This document shows, piece after piece, positions 24,761 to 36,548 of a DNA stretch of 51,000 bases. The stretch comes from a virus (lineage: Duplodnaviria > Caudoviricetes). A program made the position numbers and the translations under genes. Where the stretch lies: the IMG/VR virus record IMGVR_UViG_3300020409_000025, positions 1-51,000 of that record; one strand, written 5' to 3'. The notes beneath the pieces were generated by a model. That model had not been told where the DNA came from. It was given only the letters and a program-made list of their open reading frames with translations, and ran no database searches. Position 1 is the stretch's first letter, and the number at the start of each line of letters is the position of its first letter.

Positions 24761-24808
24761 TAGCTAGACTAGGAACAAATAGAGGTCCTTAAAAACCTAG
24801 TCTAGCTA
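24761..24808 (-). ncRNA. Perfect 13-bp hairpin with 22-nt anti-SD loop upstream of primase
   Basis: TAGCTAGACTAGG/CCTAGTCTAGCTA stem; transcript loop UUUUUAAGGACCUCUAUUUGUU. Confidence 0.5.
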
Positions 24809-29997: not shown

Positions 29998-30180
29998 ATT
30001 TACCTCTTTATTTATTCTTCAGTATAGCCGTCAAACCAAACACCCTTTAAACGAGTATCTTCTCTCTGACAATGCTCTTGTGCTTCCTCTTCGGTAAGCC
30101 CTGTTTTAATAACCTTCTGATTATCAGGGTGGTTATAATCTCTATAAAATCTAACTATTTTATAAGTCATTTTTACCTCT

Positions 30181-30450
30181 CTAGTTATTTAAGTTAGTTA
30201 AAATATATTCGCCACTATCTATTTTCATTTGAGTCACACCTTTGTTCTCACCTAAAAACATATTTCTGTAGCGACCAGTAGTGACAGAATAATCCCAATA
30301 ATATTCATCAAGATATATTTTACCACCATACACTCTCTTAGCTATGATTGAGTTGTAGCTCTGAAAATAAGTTGCATCATCTGTTCTTATTTCAAACTGA
30401 TTAGCAACTGCATTACCATTACTACTTATCATGTTTCTTACTTTTACCAT
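30181..30450 (-). CDS. Conserved phage early protein (NGNAVANQF...FQSYNSIIA...YSVTTGRYRN)
   Basis: Motif pattern recurrent in phage early regions; GGAGGT SD before the ATG at 30450. Confidence 0.7.
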   Translation of the reverse strand: MVKVRNMISSNGNAVANQFEIRTDDATYFQSYNSIIAKRVYGGKIYLDEYYWDYSVTTGRYRNMFLGENKGVTQMKIDSGEYILTNLNN

Positions 30451-30564
30451 TAATACCTCCATTAATTTTAATAGTTTTAGTTTTACTAGACTCAACATTC
30501 TTTTTTAAAGGTATGCCTTGTCTAATTCTGTCCATCATTTCCATGTGTTCTTTCATTGTCATTG

Positions 30565-30792
30565 TCATTTAGTTTCCTCATAAATTTCATTTACATTACC
30601 ACCTTCCATTAATACATTAACATTTAACCTTTGAGTAGAAATGTTTTCTATCCAATGTTTAGGTATTTCAAAAGTATTCATTACTATATCTTCAGCTTCG
30701 TAATCATTTTTAGCAAGTATAAAAACTTTATGTAAGCCTTCAAATTTATCAGAACGATATAATATTCTGTATTCATTCATAGTTGTTTTCAT
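30565..30792 (-). CDS. Hypothetical protein
   Basis: Coupled ORF. Confidence 0.6.
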   Translation of the reverse strand: MKTTMNEYRILYRSDKFEGLHKVFILAKNDYEAEDIVMNTFEIPKHWIENISTQRLNVNVLMEGGNVNEIYEETK

Positions 30793-31013
30793 TTAGTTTC
30801 CTCCTCATCTTTTACTAATCTAAGTTTTGGTTTAAGTCTTCTAAGTTTCTCCTCTGCTCTTTTACTAACCTCATCTATCTTCCGCATAGTCCTTGAACAA
30901 CTTGCAAGATATTTAATTTCGTCTAAAGCAAAGTCTAACATATCATCTTCTAAGTCTTTAAATACTCGAGCTACAGCTATCGCTTCTTCTTCTGTCAATA
31001 CTCTAAACTTCAT
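30789..31013 (-). CDS. Hypothetical protein
   Basis: Coupled ORF with GGAGG SD. Confidence 0.6.
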   Translation of the reverse strand: MKFRVLTEEEAIAVARVFKDLEDDMLDFALDEIKYLASCSRTMRKIDEVSKRAEEKLRRLKPKLRLVKDEEETK

Positions 31014-31198
31014 GCTTCCTCCTTTATTTCTTCTAAATCTTCAACAGTCATATCTTCACAAAGATGTTCCAAAGGTTTTAATCTCCCTTTAAAATAAAAT
31101 TCTTTTATAGTTCCGTCTTTGTTTAGAATTTCATTACCTTCTTCATCAGATACATAGAATTTTATATCTAGTACATTTACATACATTTCTTTACTCAT
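31010..31198 (-). CDS. Hypothetical protein
   Basis: GAGGT SD. Confidence 0.6.
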   Translation of the reverse strand: MSKEMYVNVLDIKFYVSDEEGNEILNKDGTIKEFYFKGRLKPLEHLCEDMTVEDLEEIKEEA

Positions 31199-31343
31199 GC
31201 TTTACCTCTAAGTTCTTTCATTTCTTGTTTAAACTTTTGTATTGCTTCTCGCTTAGTGTAAAAGTAATAAACTCTTGTTTCCAAGTAGCCATTAACTTCA
31301 TCACATATTCGCCAAGCTCCTTCTCTATTTTTGTCTATGTCCA

Positions 31344-31535
31344 TTATTTGTTCTCCTTGTTATAAAGCCATAAATCTACTGGAAAAATTTCAAAGTCATC
31401 TAACTCCTCTGGCTCATTTCCATCGCCAATCCTTTGTTCATTATTTTCTTTTAACCATTCTTCAGGGTTATCTGTAAGTGCGACAAATTCTGTTTCGCCA
31501 TAAGAATTTATGTAATCAATTTGATATAGTTTCAT
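31344..31535 (-). CDS. Hypothetical acidic protein
   Basis: GAGGAGG SD. Confidence 0.6.
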   Translation of the reverse strand: MKLYQIDYINSYGETEFVALTDNPEEWLKENNEQRIGDGNEPEELDDFEIFPVDLWLYNKENK

Positions 31536-31810
31536 TGTTATTCCTCCTCTACTTCAAATTCAATGTTAGATAGATTTAATCTATCATTAACTTCATCTAT
31601 TGCTTCTTCATAAGTTTCAGCTTCTACTTCAAACTCAAACTCTCCTTTAACTATAAATCTTTTCATGCTACCTCCTTTGTATAAGTTAAACAATCGTTAT
31701 CAATTAACTCTTTTAAATAATTAATAACTTCTGCATCAGTAAGTTCATAATCGTTTTTATGATTATCAAACTCTAGTTCTATAATTACTTTAGTCATGCG
31801 ACCTCCTCGC

Positions 31811-32230
31811 TTAACTGTTATACCATAAGTCAAAAGCCTCTACAGTTTCGACAATATTTTCATCACCATTTGAAAGAGCTTCAAAGATACTCTTCAAAAG
31901 ATTACCATGATAAAGACTATATTTAGTCTGCTCTTCATTACTCCATTCAATGAAAGGTTTCATTACATCATCAATGTAATAACCATTAGTCTGTAAGATA
32001 CCATTCCCCATGTAAGTAATCCCATAACCATTTACATACCTACGAAAATCATAAACATCTTCATCGTCTTTATGTAAGTCGATTATTGTTTTCATGTGGA
32101 TTGCTACCTTAATTAAATCATCAATCAAACTACACATATCTATGTGTCCTTGATTATCAGGATTTTTCTCATTAAACTTTTTTCTTCTATTATAAAGGTC
32201 AGTCTTTTCTACAGTTGCAAGTGTTTCCAA
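31811..32230 (-). CDS. Hypothetical protein
   Basis: TTG start with GGAGGT SD. Confidence 0.65.
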   Translation of the reverse strand: METLATVEKTDLYNRRKKFNEKNPDNQGHIDMCSLIDDLIKVAIHMKTIIDLHKDDEDVYDFRRYVNGYGITYMGNGILQTNGYYIDDVMKPFIEWSNEEQTKYSLYHGNLLKSIFEALSNGDENIVETVEAFDLWYNS

Positions 32231-32231
32231 T

Positions 32232-32462
32232 TTATACCTCCTTCTTTATCATTGGTTCTGCTTTTAACGATACAGCTTTACCACCACATTCTTTTTCCAT
32301 TATATGCCCAAGCGTATTAATGGTTAAAGATATTGCGAGTGAAGCTATAAAGTAATGTTCACTACCTGCATAGTCTTTCATAAAGGTATGTAGTTCCTCT
32401 ATGCTATCAAAAGCAGTGAACATATTAGTCTGTTGTATTTGTAAAGGCTTAGGTTTAGCCAT
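32232..32462 (-). CDS. Hypothetical protein
   Basis: First gene after early promoter P3. Confidence 0.65.
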   Translation of the reverse strand: MAKPKPLQIQQTNMFTAFDSIEELHTFMKDYAGSEHYFIASLAISLTINTLGHIMEKECGGKAVSLKAEPMIKKEV

Positions 32463-32507
32463 AGTTTTATCTCCATTTAGTTTATATTTCTCTTTCGAGG
32501 TGGCACT

Positions 32508-32550
32508 ACTTTAGCCGAACCACCTCCAAAAAGCAATATGTGTAAGACTA
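32508..32550 (-). promoter_or_regulatory. Early promoter P3 with upstream TAGTCTTACAC box
   Basis: TTGCTT-17-TAAAGT; the 11-bp box ends 3 nt upstream of the -35. Confidence 0.7.
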
Positions 32551-32558
32551 CTATAAGC

Positions 32559-32964
32559 GATAGCTAGTAAGGGTAGGAGAGTTATATGAAAAAAATGCCC
32601 TCACTAGCTATCTAAATTTATCGGCTCTAATAATTAACAGTTTAGATTTAAAGCAATCCCGTGAATTAATTGCTACCGATTATATAAATAATTTATGACC
32701 ACTTCCTGTCGGTTAATCCTAAATCGGTGTGGCTGTTTCAAGAACACATTAATAACTGTCACTCTGAAATTATTTATAAATTTTGTCGGTGGTCAGCTAA
32801 TCTAAGTTCAAGATTTACGAGTATATAAATACACTCTACTCCCAGTTTCTATTAGCATTAGCCAACCACCTGTGGTTAGTATCCCCGAATTTAATCTAGG
32901 CTTTATAACTAACCACTTTAAATGTCTGACTTCTGATATAAGTATTAACACCCAGACATTTAAA
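32559..32964 (-). ncRNA. Array of six abutting RNA hairpins (candidate small-RNA cluster)
   Basis: Inverted repeats at 32559-32612, 32620-32680, 32683-32778, 32788-32870, 32872-32916 and 32917-32964. G-U pairs in the 32788-32870 stem favour the minus strand. No ORF. Confidence 0.6.
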
Positions 32965-33385
32965 CATTCAATATTTCTATTTCTTCTTCGAACTCCTTTG
33001 AAACCTTATCTATAATCTTCGATAATGTATTGCATTCTCTATCAAGATAGTCATAAAGTTTTTCAATTCCAGTATTACATTCTGTCCATCTCAAAGCTCC
33101 AATATGAACAAGATATTCTTGCTTTACCCAGTCATCATGTTCTTCGCTGTAATACACATTCCATTGGTCTTCAGTAGAGTCTTTATCTACTTCCAAGATA
33201 TGAATATCAGAGTAGTCAAGATTATTAACTCCGATATATTCATCATCATCTTTTAGATTACAACACTTAGTTAAATCTCTAGTGGGTTTAACCTCGACAT
33301 GCCCTTCAATCTCTATCATGTAGCAATAGTTTTTATTGGACTTCAAGATAGCTTCAAGCAATCTGTATATATATGGTTTTATCAT
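32960..33385 (-). CDS. Hypothetical acidic protein
   Basis: GAGGAGGTG SD. Confidence 0.65.
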   Translation of the reverse strand: MIKPYIYRLLEAILKSNKNYCYMIEIEGHVEVKPTRDLTKCCNLKDDDEYIGVNNLDYSDIHILEVDKDSTEDQWNVYYSEEHDDWVKQEYLVHIGALRWTECNTGIEKLYDYLDRECNTLSKIIDKVSKEFEEEIEILNV

Positions 33386-33829
33386 TTACACCTCCTCATC
33401 ATCTGTAAATTCTTTTTCATCTAATAAGACCTGCAAAGCCATATTAAACTTAGTGGATTTATCTAACTTTTCTCCAATATCTTTTTCCATTTTATGAATA
33501 TCCCATAAAAAGTTTCTTCTAGTTTGTTCATCAAGTCTATTTAAAACTTCATGATATTGCCTATTGTTTTCTTCTGCAACAGGTGTTGTTGGATATAGGT
33601 CTTTGAGATGATAAGTCAATTTAACTAAATCATAACCACTATCTATAAAGCGATGTTTAATTAAATATTCTTCCAACTCTTTAAGAGCAGTGAACTCAGA
33701 TTTCTCATGGTCAACTTCATCACTATTTCGCCAATAGTAATTACACTCCTCACCTACTTTTGATAAAATGCCGTAGATAGCATTTATGTCTGATAGATTA
33801 TCAAATATCAACATATTATTTTCCTCCAT
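33386..33829 (-). CDS. Hypothetical acidic protein
   Basis: ORF in the early cluster. Confidence 0.65.
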   Translation of the reverse strand: MEENNMLIFDNLSDINAIYGILSKVGEECNYYWRNSDEVDHEKSEFTALKELEEYLIKHRFIDSGYDLVKLTYHLKDLYPTTPVAEENNRQYHEVLNRLDEQTRRNFLWDIHKMEKDIGEKLDKSTKFNMALQVLLDEKEFTDDEEV

Positions 33830-34112
33830 TTAAAAATTGTTCAAAGTAAAAACCTTCCTCGCCATAAATATCTATGTAGAGTTTTGCCATTTTAAATAGC
33901 TCAGGCATTAAATCAAACACTAATCTACTGTTATTACTATCCAAAGCAACAACACTATTAAATGCTTGATTAACTGCTTTTGCTATTACTTCTGCTCTTG
34001 TACTAGCAACTCCTCTGTCGATTAAAAACATAGCTACTAAGCTGTAAGTCGTAGTCAAATCGACATGATAATCACTGTGATTAAGACCAGTTTGATACAT
34101 TTTTTTTCTCAT
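33816..34112 (-). CDS. Hypothetical protein
   Basis: Coupled ORF. Confidence 0.6.
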   Translation of the reverse strand: MRKKMYQTGLNHSDYHVDLTTTYSLVAMFLIDRGVASTRAEVIAKAVNQAFNSVVALDSNNSRLVFDLMPELFKMAKLYIDIYGEEGFYFEQFLNGGK

Positions 34113-34489
34113 TTATTTTCCTCTCTAATTTTTCTCATAGTATCTACGAGCATTCTTTTTAAAATTCTTTGAATTTCATTCCAAGTTTTCCAACCTTCAA
34201 CTCCATGACCAGAGCTGCTTATATAAGGATTATCTACCAACCACTCATCAGTATATTTATCTCTGATACCTATTTCAAATAAACCATAATCTCCACCATA
34301 AGAACCACCATGACAGATAACAGTCACCATTAAGTTATCAAAGTAAAACATATACCATATACCACCTTTAACTCTATCATTACATGAGAAATTTTCCTTG
34401 TGATTTATAGGTCTTATTTCATCATTAACGACATCAATATTAGCAACGATACTTTCATATCCTGCTATCTCTATGCTATTTATTTTCAT
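34109..34489 (-). CDS. Hypothetical protein (SYGGDYGLFEI motif)
   Basis: Motif common in phage early proteins; GGAG SD. Confidence 0.65.
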   Translation of the reverse strand: MKINSIEIAGYESIVANIDVVNDEIRPINHKENFSCNDRVKGGIWYMFYFDNLMVTVICHGGSYGGDYGLFEIGIRDKYTDEWLVDNPYISSSGHGVEGWKTWNEIQRILKRMLVDTMRKIREENK

Positions 34490-34515
34490 ATCTTCTCCAT
34501 TTAAGATTTTAAGTA

Positions 34516-34866
34516 AGCAGTTTTAAATCATGCTCAGGATTTGTTATAATCTATTAACTCCCTCCAATATTAACAGCGAGTTTCTCTCTGTGTTTTTTTA
34601 TCTTTAAAGGATGATTATAACTCTCCTCCAACACCTTTAAAGATATCAGAGCAGTTTTAAATCATGCTCAGGATTTATATTCTCTCGAGATAAGAGAAAT
34701 TAAATCTGCACCTATCCAGAGTAATTAAACTCTGAATAGGATTTAGGGGGAGTGCCTTTATTTTTTTAAGTGCTTCTCGGACATATACTTGCACTATGAA
34801 CGATTGATACTTTTAGTTTCCCAGCAATTTGTATCATGCTTTTTTAATTCTTTGTTCCCCGACTGC
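34516..34866 (-). ncRNA. Structured non-coding leader with two identical 27-nt pseudoknot modules and SD-like loops
   Basis: Lies directly downstream of promoter P2. AGCAGTTTTAAATCATGCTCAGGATTT is repeated exactly at 34516-34542 and 34650-34676, with several hairpins around it. Confidence 0.6.
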
Positions 34867-34872
34867 CCCAAT

Positions 34873-34915
34873 ATAGTACCCCAAGTCGCCCAAAAACGCA
34901 ATAGGTGTAAGACTA
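34873..34915 (-). promoter_or_regulatory. Early promoter P2 with upstream TAGTCTTACAC box
   Basis: TTGCGT-17-TACTAT. Confidence 0.7.
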
Positions 34916-34924
34916 ATATGGACT

Positions 34925-35203
34925 CTATAACATGGTGACTTCATATTTATACCCCATATCCATTGAATTAGGGCTATCAAATTTATAAACAGTTTTCAAT
35001 AAAGCAAACTTATTCCTGTTGCCATATATAACATGCTTCTCATAATTAAAATTTTGAGCCGATTTAAAATTAAATCCCAAGCTATCTAAATACTCTTTAG
35101 CCTTTTCAATATTGCTAAAAGTTTTAACAGATAACTCTAAACTTTTTTTATAATCTGCTGCTAGTTTTTTATTAGCCCTTTTTTGTTCTGCCGATAGTTT
35201 CAT
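34925..35203 (-). CDS. Hypothetical early protein
   Basis: AGGAG SD; ATGA-coupled to the upstream ORF. Confidence 0.65.
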   Translation of the reverse strand: MKLSAEQKRANKKLAADYKKSLELSVKTFSNIEKAKEYLDSLGFNFKSAQNFNYEKHVIYGNRNKFALLKTVYKFDSPNSMDMGYKYEVTML

Positions 35204-35337
35204 ATACACTCCTGTTTTTTTACTAACTCTTGAACTTCATAGTAAATACCAAGATGTTGAGCAATAGCCCAAAAATCTGTAATATCACCACTAATATAAG
35301 CTTCTGCAAAAAGCTTTATTAAAGTTTCTTTATCCAT
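35200..35337 (-). CDS. First early ORF (45 aa, MDKETLIKLFAEAYISG...)
   Basis: GGAG SD, downstream of P1. Not in the ORF track. Confidence 0.55.
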   Translation of the reverse strand: MDKETLIKLFAEAYISGDITDFWAIAQHLGIYYEVQELVKKQECI

Positions 35338-35389
35338 AACACTCCATAATTTATATTGTTTTATAAAGATTTACCCGAAAGTCGCCAAC

Positions 35390-35433
35390 ACTTTAGCCCG
35401 ATTTCGCCCAAAAAGTCAAGAGGTGTAAGACTA
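35390..35433 (-). promoter_or_regulatory. Early promoter P1 with upstream TAGTCTTACAC box
   Basis: TTGACT-18-TAAAGT. Confidence 0.7.
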
Positions 35434-35527
35434 TAATAGCCCCCTCAACTTTACGCACACGCGATAAGTCGGCAAGATTTAAGTATTAGACTATAATTTT
35501 TCTAAAAAGTTCTGGGATTTATTAAGA

Positions 35528-35582
35528 TTTCACATAAAGTTCACAAAGATTTCACATAATATTTGCAAAGATTTAACAAAAG
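35528..35582 (+). repeat. Five 11-bp phased repeats (TTTCACA-type)
   Basis: Units start at 35528, 35539, 35550, 35561 and 35572; the last two are degenerate. Confidence 0.7.
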
Positions 35583-35922
35583 GTACAGTAATTTTAGTAT
35601 GTACCTTTATAATTTATGTACCTTTTAAGACTATTATGTGTACCTTCTACACTCTTTGCCCTCAACTTTACGCAGACGGGGGGCGTTCTAGTATAGTAAT
35701 AAGTAGGTTTATATATCATCTTTGTGAGTAGAAAACAGACAAACTAAACAAGACTTTTTAAAAACCCTACGGGTTGTGTGTTTTATGCTTTGCTAGGGGC
35801 AAAGATTAACAAAGCTTTAGAAAAGCTTTACCAAAAGTGAGGGGTGCTAAAGCACTCTTGAAGTTTTGCCTCACACAAGGTTCGGCAGGTTATTAACAGT
35901 GGAGTAGGGTTTTTAAAAAAAA

Positions 35923-35977
35923 TTTCACATGTTTGTCACATAAATGTCACAAAGATGTCACAATATTGACACAAAAT
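35923..35977 (+). repeat. Five 11-bp phased repeats (TGTCACA-type, Pho-box-like)
   Basis: TTTCACATGTT TGTCACATAAA TGTCACAAAGA TGTCACAATAT TGACACAAAAT. Confidence 0.75.
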
Positions 35978-36015
35978 TTATTGAACTTTTTATGAACTAA
36001 TTTTGTCTAATTAAC

Positions 36016-36222
36016 ATGAACGAAATACACATTCATTTTACAGACCAAATTCTAGGCGAGTCTTTTGCCCTAGTAGCCGAGTCAATGAAAGAAGCAAAGG
36101 ACATAATCAAAATTCATTTTGAGGAATTTGACCAAAAGCCATTTTTAGTCAAAGCACCAAAAATTTGGATTGAAAAAGAGATTAGCAATTATGCTATCTC
36201 ACTTTATAGGAGTGTCAAATAA
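36016..36222 (+). CDS. Hypothetical protein (possibly leaderless)
   Basis: No SD; TAATG-coupled to the next ORF. Confidence 0.6.
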   Translation: MNEIHIHFTDQILGESFALVAESMKEAKDIIKIHFEEFDQKPFLVKAPKIWIEKEISNYAISLYRSVK

Positions 36223-36548
36223 TGGCTTTTAAACCTACTACTGAATGGCTCGAGGCTGCCAAATTAAAGCCTGTTTCTTACAATACTGTATTATTCATCT
36301 GTGGTTTGATGAGTGAAGAACTTCCCAAGTCTTCAAAATACAAGTATTTTAATCAACTTAGAGCAACTATCCTTAGTGTTTCAAAAGGTACTACCTGCAA
36401 ACACACTGGGAAAAAAGGTACTTTCTCGCAACGTATGGCTCATGATTGGATTGAAAAAAATAAAAATCTTCCTTTCAAAAAACGCAAGTTGCCTAAGTTG
36501 ATTTCCGATAAATACACAAGGTTTCAGGAGAACCACACAGAAGAATAA
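36222..36548 (+). CDS. Hypothetical basic protein
   Basis: AGGAG SD; followed by a terminator. Confidence 0.7.
   Translation: MAFKPTTEWLEAAKLKPVSYNTVLFICGLMSEELPKSSKYKYFNQLRATILSVSKGTTCKHTGKKGTFSQRMAHDWIEKNKNLPFKKRKLPKLISDKYTRFQENHTEE

What the first reader, a model, noticed from the sequence alone, without database searches (positions are those of the whole stretch)
32559..32964. Tandem array of six back-to-back hairpins with unrelated loops: candidate phage small-RNA (antisense guide) cluster
Seen: a gene-free 400-bp stretch of the early operon is tiled almost without gaps by stem-loops. H1 is 32559-32612 (GATAGCTAGT..ACTAGCTATC). H2 is 32620-32680 (imperfect). H3 is 32683-32778 (TATAAATAATTT/AAATTATTTATA). 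H4 is 32788-32870. H5 is 32872-32916 (GTGGTTAGT/ACTAACCAC). H6 is 32917-32964 (TTTAAATGTCTG/CAGACATTTAAA). Each has a different 20-60 nt loop, far larger than terminator loops, and none has a U-tract. H4 has two adjacent G-U pairs only on the minus (transcribed) strand. Known: RNase III cuts stems in T7 early transcripts. Inference: this is a polycistronic precursor processed into several stable small RNAs whose loops act as guides or decoys, organised like a miRNA cluster.
Basis: partly seen in the sequence, partly recalled or inferred. Interest (0 to 1): 0.85.

Follow-up and report, generated by a model that had tools for sequence, protein, structure and literature searches.

The report
Shuffled RNA hairpin cassettes, ocean phage
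A gene-free stretch in the early genes of an uncultured ocean phage (a relative of phages of the SAR11 bacterium Pelagibacter) really is a row of RNA hairpins, and related phages carry different mixes of the same hairpin units, but whether they only shape the messenger RNA or are small RNAs in their own right is still open.

Summary
Window 32463-32964 is untranslated and lies between two minus-strand early genes. As minus-strand RNA it folds into the six hairpins described plus a seventh (z -6.16). It is the most structured of 202 same-size windows on that strand, and unremarkable on the plus strand.

It matches no Rfam family, tRNA, terminator or TIGR array. In 47 related records (31 distinct arrays) the hairpins behave as discrete cassettes. 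H1 was found in all 14 relatives located through flanking proteins. The others (about 17 types) come and go, from none to five.

Stems are kept through G-U changes that work only on the transcribed strand, and through two compensatory pairs in one module. Seven module types end in the same short AU-rich linker, which fits the RNase E motif. One module is 97% identical in a phage that is only 69% identical in its replication genes.

The H1 loop is the antisense of a ribosome-binding site. Its 8-base complement lies just downstream in 18 of 30 arrays.

Best reading (0.45): cis-acting processing, stability and translation-control hairpins of the early polycistronic mRNA, shuffled by recombination at the linkers.

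The parts
32917..32964 (-). H6: 12-13 bp stem with a loop of about 22 nt. Its 5' arm contains the stop codon of the 141-aa gene.
   Evidence: I9; z -3.55. Mapped in 3 of 31 arrays.
32872..32916 (-). H5: 9 bp basal stem plus a small inner stem.
   Evidence: z -3.55. 8 distinct copies, 112/112 cells paired, 2 pairs switch between GC and GU.
32786..32871 (-). H4: stem of about 18 bp with two adjacent G-U pairs and a branched top, followed by the AU-rich linker.
   Evidence: -30.5 kcal/mol on minus, -22.9 on plus. 100% identical in 3 arrays.
32683..32778 (-). H3: perfect 12-bp A/U outer stem around 72 nt. The inner fold is not supported.
   Evidence: I8; z -1.08. Inner predicted pairs are broken in relatives.
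32618..32682 (-). H2: imperfect hairpin followed by the linker.
   Evidence: z -2.2. Three copies at 97% identity.
32557..32614 (-). H1: the conserved core element. A 15-bp stem with one G-U pair and a 24-nt loop that is antisense to a ribosome-binding site plus start codon.
   Evidence: z -6.08. Present in 14 of 14 protein-anchored relatives. 190/190 cells paired. Loop partner.
32485..32556 (-). Third copy of a promoter-like repeat (an 11-mer at 32540-32550, then -35-like and -10-like hexamers 17 nt apart), overlapped by hairpin M0.
   Evidence: the 11-mer occurs exactly 3 times, all on the minus strand; alignment of the 3 copies; M0 z -5.53.
32960..33385 (-). Upstream early gene, 141 aa, no known family.
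32232..32462 (-). Downstream early gene, 76 aa, no known family. Absent from most relatives.
34599..34645 (-). Hairpin in the 435-nt untranslated leader after the second promoter copy. Its loop carries a 12-nt complement of the H1 loop. It lies in a 134-nt unit flanked by perfect 27-nt direct repeats.
   Evidence: I10; D5; -15.1 kcal/mol, 0/500 shuffles.
24761..24808 (-). H1-like hairpin: 13-bp stem sharing the core of the H1 stem, 22-nt loop, directly before the ribosome-binding site of the primase/helicase gene.
   Evidence: (I7).

Best explanation
The stretch is a transcribed, untranslated spacer inside the early polycistronic mRNA of a phage that uses the host RNA polymerase. It is built from independently folding stem-loop cassettes.

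H1 is the fixed element. It sits immediately before the next expression unit, and its loop is an anti-ribosome-binding-site sequence that can pair with an SD-like 8-mer just downstream (inferred: control of translation or of processing of the next cistron).

The other hairpins are accessory. They are joined by a short conserved single-stranded AU-rich linker that fits the RNase E cleavage motif. After cutting at a linker, each hairpin would cap a 3' or 5' end and set the stability of the neighbouring mRNA segment (inferred, by analogy with T7 early mRNA and the Rhodobacter puf operon). The long stems of H4, D and H1 could also be cut by RNase III (untested).

The same linkers serve as micro-homologies at which cassettes are gained, lost and exchanged between phages. 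That makes this site a hyperplastic region whose cassettes are RNA hairpins rather than small genes.
For: Shown:
- The site is flanked by minus-strand genes with no terminator. Elsewhere the operon is tightly packed; only three gaps are both non-coding and structured.
- The structure is specific to the transcribed strand.
- All 5 one-sided stem changes in H1 and H5 are between GC, GU and AU, which pair only on that strand. Module D has 2 compensatory pairs (3/500 shuffles reach this). A G-C pair of H1 is absent on both sides in 5 of 13 variants.
- Shared modules are 94.9% identical against 88.8% for the adjacent gene, and are more alike than the gene in 45 of 55 genome pairs.
- 31 distinct arrays among 47 records carry 0 to 5 accessory cassettes.
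- Seven unrelated module types are followed by the same 9-12 nt linker. It fits the RN|WUU motif of RNase E (passages of PMC5222698).
- In 10 of 30 arrays H1 is followed within about 40 nt by the next gene with no promoter-like motif, so transcripts must read through it.
- The complement of the H1 loop core lies 65-85 nt after the start of H1 in 18 of 30 arrays, in two unrelated downstream units. There are only 8 hits elsewhere in 247 kb. Duplex energies are -15 to -16.8 kcal/mol, with 0-4 of 500 shuffles as good.
- Module D occurs 12 nt before a ribosome-binding site in another phage.
Against: - No cleavage, transcript end or half-life was measured.
- RN|WUU is a loose motif in a 33% G+C genome. 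The linker could be conserved only as a recombination joint.
- One hairpin should be enough for a cis function, and 9 records do have H1 alone, so a stack of five more is not explained by need.
- In the window itself, and in the other arrays with the promoter-type or the fourth type of downstream unit, H1 has no significant local partner (-8.2 kcal/mol with 145/500 shuffles as good, and -3.0 with 449/500). The distant partner hairpin is missing from several such relatives.
- An H1 variant with two loop changes (L273) shows no matching change in the 2.1 kb upstream and 2.2 kb downstream that are held.
- Loops are as conserved as stems, which a purely structural role does not require.
- Both compensatory pairs come from a single sequence (L144).
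Confidence: 0.45

Rival explanations
1. A cluster of small stable RNA genes. The early transcript is cut at the linkers into hairpin RNAs of 45-125 nt, which act in trans as decoys, sponges or guides during host takeover. The variable cassette content would be an RNA counterpart of accessory early genes.
For: - Modules are autonomous units with conserved ends, and their loops are conserved as well as their stems.
- Module D is 76/78 identical in a phage whose primase-polymerase region is 69% identical, and it lies at another genome position.
- One module in three relatives is tRNA-like: acceptor stem, T arm and canonical T loop. It is called only at a relaxed ARAGORN setting. This recalls tRNA-punctuated processing.
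- The site is hypervariable, as accessory loci are.
- Other agents of this scan noted modular structured RNA arrays in early regions of unrelated phages (unchecked leads).
Against: - No small RNA was observed; the contigs of four RNA libraries cannot show ends.
- No promoter or terminator accompanies each unit.
- There is no excess of complementarity to the phage genome.
- The complement of the H1 loop hits only generic gene starts in unrelated taxa, and none of the 80 record titles shown out of 120 or more names a Pelagibacter.
- The loops of H4, H5 and H6 show no local partner.
- Host genomes were not searched with the other loops.
Confidence: 0.25
2. Selfish or neutral palindromic DNA. The hairpins would be recombination scars or miniature mobile palindromes that pile up in a permissive gap, with no function as RNA.
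For: - Presence/absence polymorphism with precise ends, shared junction sequences, and one order change (H2 upstream of T and D in L133).
- A neighbouring 134-nt unit is flanked by perfect 27-nt direct repeats and is absent from relatives that keep one repeat copy.
- Module D is found at a second genomic position in another phage.
Against: - Each module is single-copy in the genome. The own-genome search finds only the 30-nt promoter repeat again.
- Pair-preserving changes are strand-asymmetric and there are compensatory pairs.
- Modules are more conserved than the adjacent gene.
- They always lie on the transcribed strand.
- G-T pairs would also stabilise single-stranded DNA of that strand, so a DNA-hairpin role is weakened but not excluded.
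Confidence: 0.12
3. A stack of transcription attenuators or terminators (like the stem-loops of T4-type PeSL cassettes) that insulates the upstream early unit from the unit driven by the internal promoter copy.
For: - In the window the array ends at a promoter-like repeat, and a hairpin overlaps its -10 region, as in some PeSL classes (section 13 of PMC2839356).
- PeSL stem-loops reduced reporter expression in that paper.
Against: - No hairpin has a U-tract.
- Only 9 of 30 arrays have that promoter after H1. In 10 of 30 the next gene follows H1 directly, and the replication genes lie further downstream, so strong termination would be harmful.
- The hairpins are unique sequences, not copies of one motif.
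Confidence: 0.08

Closest known systems
RNase III processing hairpins between the early genes of T7-group podoviruses
   Same: Stem-loops inside a polycistronic early mRNA made by the host polymerase. They lie between cistrons and lack a U-tract. They are thought to leave protective hairpins at 3' ends and to free ribosome-binding sites.
   Different: In T7 there is one site per gene junction. Here up to seven hairpins lie back to back with no genes between them, their content differs between close relatives, most stems are shorter than two helical turns, and cleavage is untested.
PeSL (promoter-early stem-loop) cassettes of T4-type phages (PMC2839356: abstract and section 13; PMC4122927: abstract)
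   Same: Short regulatory cassettes in hyperplastic early regions whose shared sequences mediate insertion, deletion and swapping between close relatives. G-T pairs occur in the stems. The window's third promoter copy with its overlapping hairpin looks PeSL-like.
   Different: PeSLs are about 50 copies per genome of one composite promoter-plus-stem-loop motif, each before an ORFan. H1-H6 have no promoter, are single-copy and mutually unrelated, and the shared element is only a 9-12 nt linker.
Intercistronic hairpins and RNase E sites giving segmental stability to the puf mRNA of Rhodobacter (passages of PMC6238624)
   Same: An alphaproteobacterial host, AU-rich RNase E sites next to intergenic structure, and different stability of operon segments.
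   Different: A cellular operon with a fixed structure, with no modular turnover and no array.
Stem-loop-type TIGR arrays with Tas (Nop-domain) proteins, mostly in phages (passages of PMC12045711)
   Same: Tandem hairpins with variable palindromic stems in phage genomes, transcribed and processed at the linkers into one RNA per hairpin.
   Different: No Nop-domain gene in the genome, no box C motif and only one box D tetramer in the array, and no repeated unit or dual short spacers.
Processed antisense RNAs of P1/P7 (c4) and P4 (CI), whose loops pair with sites in the same operon (recalled; not read)
   Same: A hairpin loop complementary to a ribosome-binding-site-like sequence elsewhere in the same early transcript (H1 loop with the downstream 8-mer, or with the leader hairpin).
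   Different: Those belong to immunity systems of temperate phages with defined targets. No processing or target effect is shown here, and the partner is missing in some relatives.

Membership tests
Any Rfam 15 family, including tRNA and tmRNA | Covariance-model score at or above the family's gathering threshold | tested here: not met
   0 matches in the 51-kb window at gathering thresholds. The best sub-threshold hit is fstAT, 19.1 bits against 72. 0 matches at E<=1 in five related loci, 32.5 kb. ARAGORN finds 0 tRNAs in the window and in 12 loci.
Intrinsic (rho-independent) terminator | G+C-rich stem with a short loop, followed directly by a U-tract | tested here: not met
   No terminator-like site on the minus strand in 30000-36500. 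Loops are 20-70 nt. The T-run of the linker starts 5-6 nt after the stem.
T7-type RNase III processing site | Lies between cistrons within a polycistronic early transcript | tested here: met
   Minus-strand genes on both sides and no terminator. In 10 of 30 arrays the next gene follows H1 without a promoter-like motif.
T7-type RNase III processing site | About two turns (roughly 20 bp) of double-stranded RNA | tested here: inconclusive
   H4 has about 18 bp with one bulge and H1 has 15 bp. H6 and H3 have 12-13 bp and H5 has 9 bp.
T7-type RNase III processing site | Cleavage by RNase III | not testable with these tools
   Needs an in vitro or in vivo assay. The RNA-library contigs show no ends.
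PeSL cassette (T4-type phages) | Composite of a sigma-70-type promoter and a stem-loop, repeated many times in the genome | tested here: not met
   H1-H6 contain no promoter repeat and are single-copy. Only the element at 32485-32556 combines a promoter-like repeat (3 copies) with a hairpin.
PeSL cassette (T4-type phages) | Indels and swaps between close relatives have their borders at the cassettes | tested here: met
   31 distinct arrays whose breakpoints lie at module ends or linkers.
TIGR-Tas (stem-loop type) | Adjacent gene for a Nop-domain (Tas) protein | tested here: not met
   PF01798 gives no match at E<=10 in six frames of the complete 51-kb record, while the controls respond. The flanking proteins have no Pfam or PHROG hit. 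A very divergent Tas protein cannot be excluded by sequence alone.
TIGR-Tas (stem-loop type) | [quoted passage not shown] | tested here: not met
   No box C hexamer on either strand of the array, and 1 in 10.8 kb across all 31 arrays.
Processed small-RNA cluster (miRNA-cluster-like) | Discrete stable RNAs released from the precursor | not testable with these tools
   Only assembled contigs of relatives were found in 4 RNA libraries.
Processed small-RNA cluster (miRNA-cluster-like) | Loops complementary to targets beyond chance | tested here: inconclusive
   There is no excess overall: 56 11-mer matches against a mean of 63.7. Only the H1 loop has a non-random partner, and that partner is in cis. 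Host genomes were searched with the H1 loop only, and gave generic hits.
MITE / REP-like mobile palindromes | Many copies dispersed in a genome | tested here: not met
   The array has no second copy in its own genome apart from the 30-nt promoter repeat. Module D was found at one other position, in another phage.

The most novel reading that the evidence does not exclude
Pelagiphages of this lineage carry a combinatorial 'RNA cassette' locus. Independently folding small RNAs, including a tRNA-like member, are punctuated by a conserved RNase E-type linker and released from the early transcript. They are exchanged between phages as units, as accessory early genes are, and each acts on a host or phage factor as a decoy, sponge or guide. 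Host takeover in some of the ocean's most abundant viruses would then be tuned by swapping RNA modules instead of proteins.
Probability: 0.25. Interest if true: 0.8.

Novelty: new variant of a known kind. Interest (0 to 1): 0.58.

Why it matters
Structured hairpins inside phage early mRNAs are textbook for T7 and T4. What is unusual here is a site where the exchangeable cassettes are themselves unrelated RNA hairpins, stacked up to seven deep and joined by one conserved linker.

I found no description of such a site. A full-text search for 'pelagiphage' with 'stem-loop' gave 2 papers, both on another phage. The two papers describing the nearest cultured groups contain none of the words hairpin, stem-loop, non-coding or intergenic.

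The phage belongs to a group infecting SAR11, the most abundant marine bacteria, in which post-transcriptional control during infection is essentially unstudied.

The finding offers concrete, testable elements:
- a universal hairpin whose loop is an anti-ribosome-binding site with a partner nearby;
- a candidate RNase E punctuation motif;
- a set of natural variants (31 arrays) that amounts to a ready-made deletion series.

Tried and rejected
- Rfam at gathering and at permissive thresholds, and ARAGORN: nothing.
- blastn of the array, and of the array of relative L272, against 50,697 GenBank phage records: no match, and one chance 41-nt hit.
- Sliding 120-nt windows with my own shuffles: the first script timed out. 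The second gave a biased, noisy background (mean z -0.85; 38 of 334 windows below -2.5, many of them in genes), so I replaced it with the 502-nt genome-wide comparison.
- The junction heptamer and 11-mer as genome-wide motifs: not enriched in the window (6 against 2.5 expected, with 7/100 shuffles reaching it; 35 against 31.9).
- RNA libraries: four runs hold small shares (0.05-0.14 of the sampled words), all as assembled contigs of relatives. One 610-nt contig joins the end of the 141-aa gene, through letters that do not match the window, to H1. No ends, strand or level can be read, and DNA carry-over cannot be excluded.
- H1 loop as a guide: an exact 18-mer scan of viral contigs gave 19 non-H1 hits (distinct sequences among them), and a scan of 185,579 prokaryote genomes gave 120 or more hits in unrelated taxa. 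All are generic gene-start contexts on the opposite strand.
- H1 loop variant L273: no compensating partner within the 4.4 kb held.
- Loop-to-downstream pairing for H1b, H4, H5 and H6: not better than shuffles.
- Largest non-coding gap of the cultured relative HTVC115P: not structured (z -1.25). The array is therefore not a general feature of the wider group.
- TIGR-Tas: excluded.
- tRNA-like module T: no further copies in viral contigs.
- ESM Atlas and protein-family searches of the flanking genes: no lead. The homologues of the 139-aa gene are all 78% identical or more, so no distant relatives could be reached through it.
- The tiny plus-strand ORF in the H1 loop: its frame changes with the length of the A-run among variants, so it was rejected as coding.

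Full report
THE OBSERVATION

The window is a complete 51-kb phage record with about 33% G+C.
- Structural genes lie on the plus strand: terminase, portal, major head protein, tail fibre.
- Early and replication genes lie on the minus strand from about 36000 down to 16500: primase/helicase, DNA polymerase, exonuclease, ribonucleotide reductase.
- The nearest cultured phages are Pelagibacter phages HTVC115P, HTVC103P and HTVC104P (capsid 60%, DNA polymerase 52% identity). A preprint calls these the HTVC103P-type group, with homology to HMO-2011 (passages).
- None of the 20 larger ORFs scanned against PHROGs matched an RNA polymerase family. The early genes are therefore presumably read by the host enzyme.

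The finding lies between a 141-aa gene (32960-33385) and a 76-aa gene (32232-32462), both on the minus strand and both without any family.

IS IT MORE THAN CHANCE?

- Minus-strand RNA of 32463-32964 folds at -140.1 kcal/mol, against -105.6 +/- 5.6 for shuffles (z -6.16). The plus strand gives -117.8 (z -4.65).
- Shuffle z-scores were also low in many coding windows in my own sliding scan. I therefore compared the stretch with 202 windows of the same length from this genome, with G+C regressed out. On the minus strand none is more stable (residual -40 kcal/mol, z -2.9). On the plus strand 22 are.
- Per hairpin on the minus strand: H1, H4, H5 and H6 are individually significant; H2 is marginal; H3 is not.
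- A seventh hairpin at 32485-32540 is significant (z -5.5).
- The minus-strand operon is otherwise tightly packed. Only three gaps are both non-coding and structured: this one, the 435-nt leader at 34490-34924 (z -2.8), and a 61-nt gap with one hairpin before the primase gene.

KNOWN FAMILIES

- No Rfam family and no tRNA.
- No terminator-like site on the minus strand.
- No similar DNA in 50,697 phage records.
- Stem-loop-type TIGR arrays are a recently described kind of processed hairpin array in phages (passages of PMC12045711). They were considered and excluded: there is no Nop-domain gene in the genome and no box C motif.

A PROMOTER-LIKE REPEAT

An 11-mer followed by -35-like and -10-like hexamers occurs exactly three times in the window, all on the minus strand, at about 35433, 34915 and 32550. 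The third copy starts right after H1. In the window the array is therefore the untranslated tail of the unit started by the second copy, and it precedes an internal promoter candidate.

RELATIVES

- Protein searches with the two neighbouring genes found 22 loci from 16 IMG/VR contigs. 14 of these contigs cover the interval, and all 14 contain H1.
- Pattern scans with the H1 arms found 16 H1-bearing stretches among 77 in IMG/VR and 30 in metagenome contigs. The other 61 IMG/VR stretches shared only the 15-mer.
- With the window this makes 47 records and 31 distinct arrays. 8 of the 31 are cut by contig ends.
- All are close relatives: the neighbouring proteins are 75-96% identical, and no homologue of the 139-aa protein falls below 78%.

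Mapping 18 reference modules onto the arrays shows discrete cassettes.
- 9 records (4 distinct sequences) have H1 alone, 27 nt after the stop of the 141-aa gene.
- Others carry one to five accessory hairpins. The window's combination (H6 H5 H4 H3 H2 H1) is unique.
- At the same place some relatives carry short ORFs instead (L035, L143).
- The order is mostly the same, but L133 has H2 upstream of modules T and D, so simple deletion from one ancestral array does not explain everything.

ARE THE STRUCTURES SELECTED?

- H1: 13 distinct sequences, 15 pairs, 190 of 190 cells paired. 3 pairs change on one side only (GC to GU twice, GU to AU once). One G-C pair is missing on both sides in 5 sequences. 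There are no double substitutions, and the shuffle control is uninformative at this low diversity.
- H5: 8 sequences, 112 of 112 cells paired, 2 pairs alternate between GC and GU.
- Module D is absent from the window and common in relatives. It has 12 sequences, 20 pairs and 99.6% of cells paired. 2 pairs show compensatory double changes (GC to AU, UA to CG) and 3 of 500 shuffles reach this. Both double changes, and the one broken cell, are in the single divergent copy L144.
- All five one-sided changes keep pairing only on the transcribed strand.
- The inner fold predicted for H3 is broken by substitutions in relatives; only its outer stem is kept.
- Over 55 genome pairs, shared modules are 94.9% identical against 88.8% for the adjacent gene, and more alike than the gene in 45 pairs. 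Most of these comparisons rest on H1 alone.
- Loops within a module are about as conserved as stems.

In short, there is modest but consistent evidence for selection on minus-strand structure. The sample is too shallow for strong covariation statistics.

LINKERS AND MOBILITY

- Seven unrelated module types (D, its variant, H4, H5, H2, G, Hx) are followed by the same 9-12 nt single-stranded linker. The next stem starts after one to three more bases.
- The linker contains the RN|WUU core that a transcriptome-wide map found for RNase E (passages of PMC5222698). This motif is loose in an AT-rich genome, so the fit is permissive rather than diagnostic.
- The same sequence is an obvious micro-homology for recombination.
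- In the leader at 34490-34924, a 134-nt unit holding a hairpin is flanked by perfect 27-nt direct repeats. It is missing from relatives that keep one repeat copy. This is a second case of unit gain or loss at short repeats.
- Module D also occurs in contig L272. That phage's primase-polymerase region is only 69% identical to the window over 3 kb, yet D is 76/78 identical. There it lies on the transcribed strand at a different genome position, behind other hairpins with the same linker, and 12 nt before the ribosome-binding site of a gene.
- The units therefore move between phages, or are under unusually strong constraint.

H1 IS SPECIAL

- Its 24-nt loop is the exact antisense of an SD, a spacer, an AUG and an A-run. 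This explains why the loop 18-mer hits the starts of unrelated genes in viral contigs and in 120 or more prokaryote genomes. That result argues against a specific trans target.
- After H1 come four alternative units:
  - the promoter repeat (9 of 30 arrays);
  - a short element followed at once by the next gene (10 of 30);
  - a small hairpin plus a different sigma-70-like promoter (9 of 30);
  - a fourth type (2 of 30).
- The 8-mer complementary to the loop core lies 65-85 nt after the start of H1 in 18 of 30 arrays, spread over the second and third units, which are otherwise unrelated. In 3 further arrays, including the window, it lies 1.6-2.5 kb upstream, in the loop of the leader hairpin at 34599-34645. 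Only 8 other copies occur in 247 kb of transcribed strand.
- Predicted duplexes are -15 to -16.8 kcal/mol, with 0-4 of 500 shuffles as good. For the promoter-type and fourth-type units there is no local partner.
- In the window the H1 loop and the leader-hairpin loop share 12 complementary bases (-15.1 kcal/mol, 0/500). 3 of 4 variants of that hairpin keep the match, one through a G-U pair. The hairpin is absent from several relatives that have H1.
- The other hairpins tested (H1b, H4, H5, H6) show no such pairing.
- A hairpin sharing the core of the H1 stem sits directly before the ribosome-binding site of the primase/helicase gene.

INTERPRETATION

- Shown: a transcribed-strand-specific array of stable stem-loops; cassette-like turnover; a conserved linker; a universal hairpin with an anti-ribosome-binding-site loop and a non-random cis partner.
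- Inferred: the array acts in cis on the early mRNA. Cutting at the linkers (RNase E) or in long stems (RNase III) would leave hairpin-capped segments, and H1 would gate the translation or processing of the next cistron. The linkers double as recombination joints.
- I put this at 0.45. The location, the need for read-through in a third of the arrays, module D sitting in a 5' leader elsewhere, and the cis partner of H1 all point to mRNA function.
- The small-RNA cluster remains a live rival (0.25). A stack of dispensable yet well-conserved and mobile units, one of them tRNA-like (relaxed setting only), is not what a purely cis function needs.
- Selfish or neutral palindromes (0.12) and attenuator stacks (0.08) fit less well, for the reasons given under rivals.

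LIMITS

- No RNA ends, no enzyme assays and no cultured host-phage pair were available.
- Relatives are shallow.
- The H1-bearing set from pattern scans was selected on the H1 arms, so it cannot show H1 stem variation beyond the pattern. The variant L273 was found only through module D.
- Host genomes could not be searched with the other loops.
- Supplementary files of the cited papers were not seen.
- Statements about T7 RNase III sites and the P1 and P4 antisense RNAs are recalled, not read.

Noticed in passing
window 35423-35433, 34905-34915, 32540-32550 (minus strand), with about 45 nt downstream of each: Three copies of a promoter-like repeat: a conserved 11-mer, then a -35-like TTG hexamer, a T-rich spacer and a -10-like hexamer. 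These are probably the early promoters read by the host polymerase. The conserved upstream 11-mer is unusual for a plain sigma-70 site.
   Followed up: partly
window 35524-35578 and 35919-35962: Iteron-like direct repeats with a period of about 11 nt, in the divergent control region between the minus-strand early genes and the plus-strand genes. The cumulative GC skew also turns there. This is a candidate origin or operator region.
   Followed up: no
window 34490-34924 (minus strand): A 435-nt untranslated, moderately structured leader (z -2.8) after the second promoter copy. It is mosaic among relatives and holds a 134-nt unit flanked by perfect 27-nt direct repeats at 34516-34542 and 34650-34676.
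   Followed up: partly
window 24761-24808 (minus strand): A hairpin with a 13-bp perfect stem and a 22-nt loop directly before the ribosome-binding site of the primase/helicase gene. It shares the core and the 3' end of the H1 stem. Four hairpins in the early region (this one, H1, H6 and the one at 34599-34645) have loops of 22-24 nt.
   Followed up: partly
L079:2040-2260 (minus strand); also L129 and L133: A tRNA-like module within the arrays of three relatives: acceptor stem, T arm with a canonical T loop, and a 26-nt hairpin inserted in the anticodon loop. ARAGORN calls it only at a relaxed setting, and Rfam does not call it.
   Followed up: partly
L272:2300-2860: A more distant relative (69% identical in primase-polymerase) has its own row of hairpins with the same linker at a different genome position. 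The row ends with module D, 12 nt before a gene's ribosome-binding site.
   Followed up: partly
L131 and L145, about 105 nt before H1: In these relatives the 141-aa gene is deleted except for roughly its last 40 nt. That remnant still precedes H1, which shows that the H1 boundary is kept while the gene is lost.
   Followed up: no
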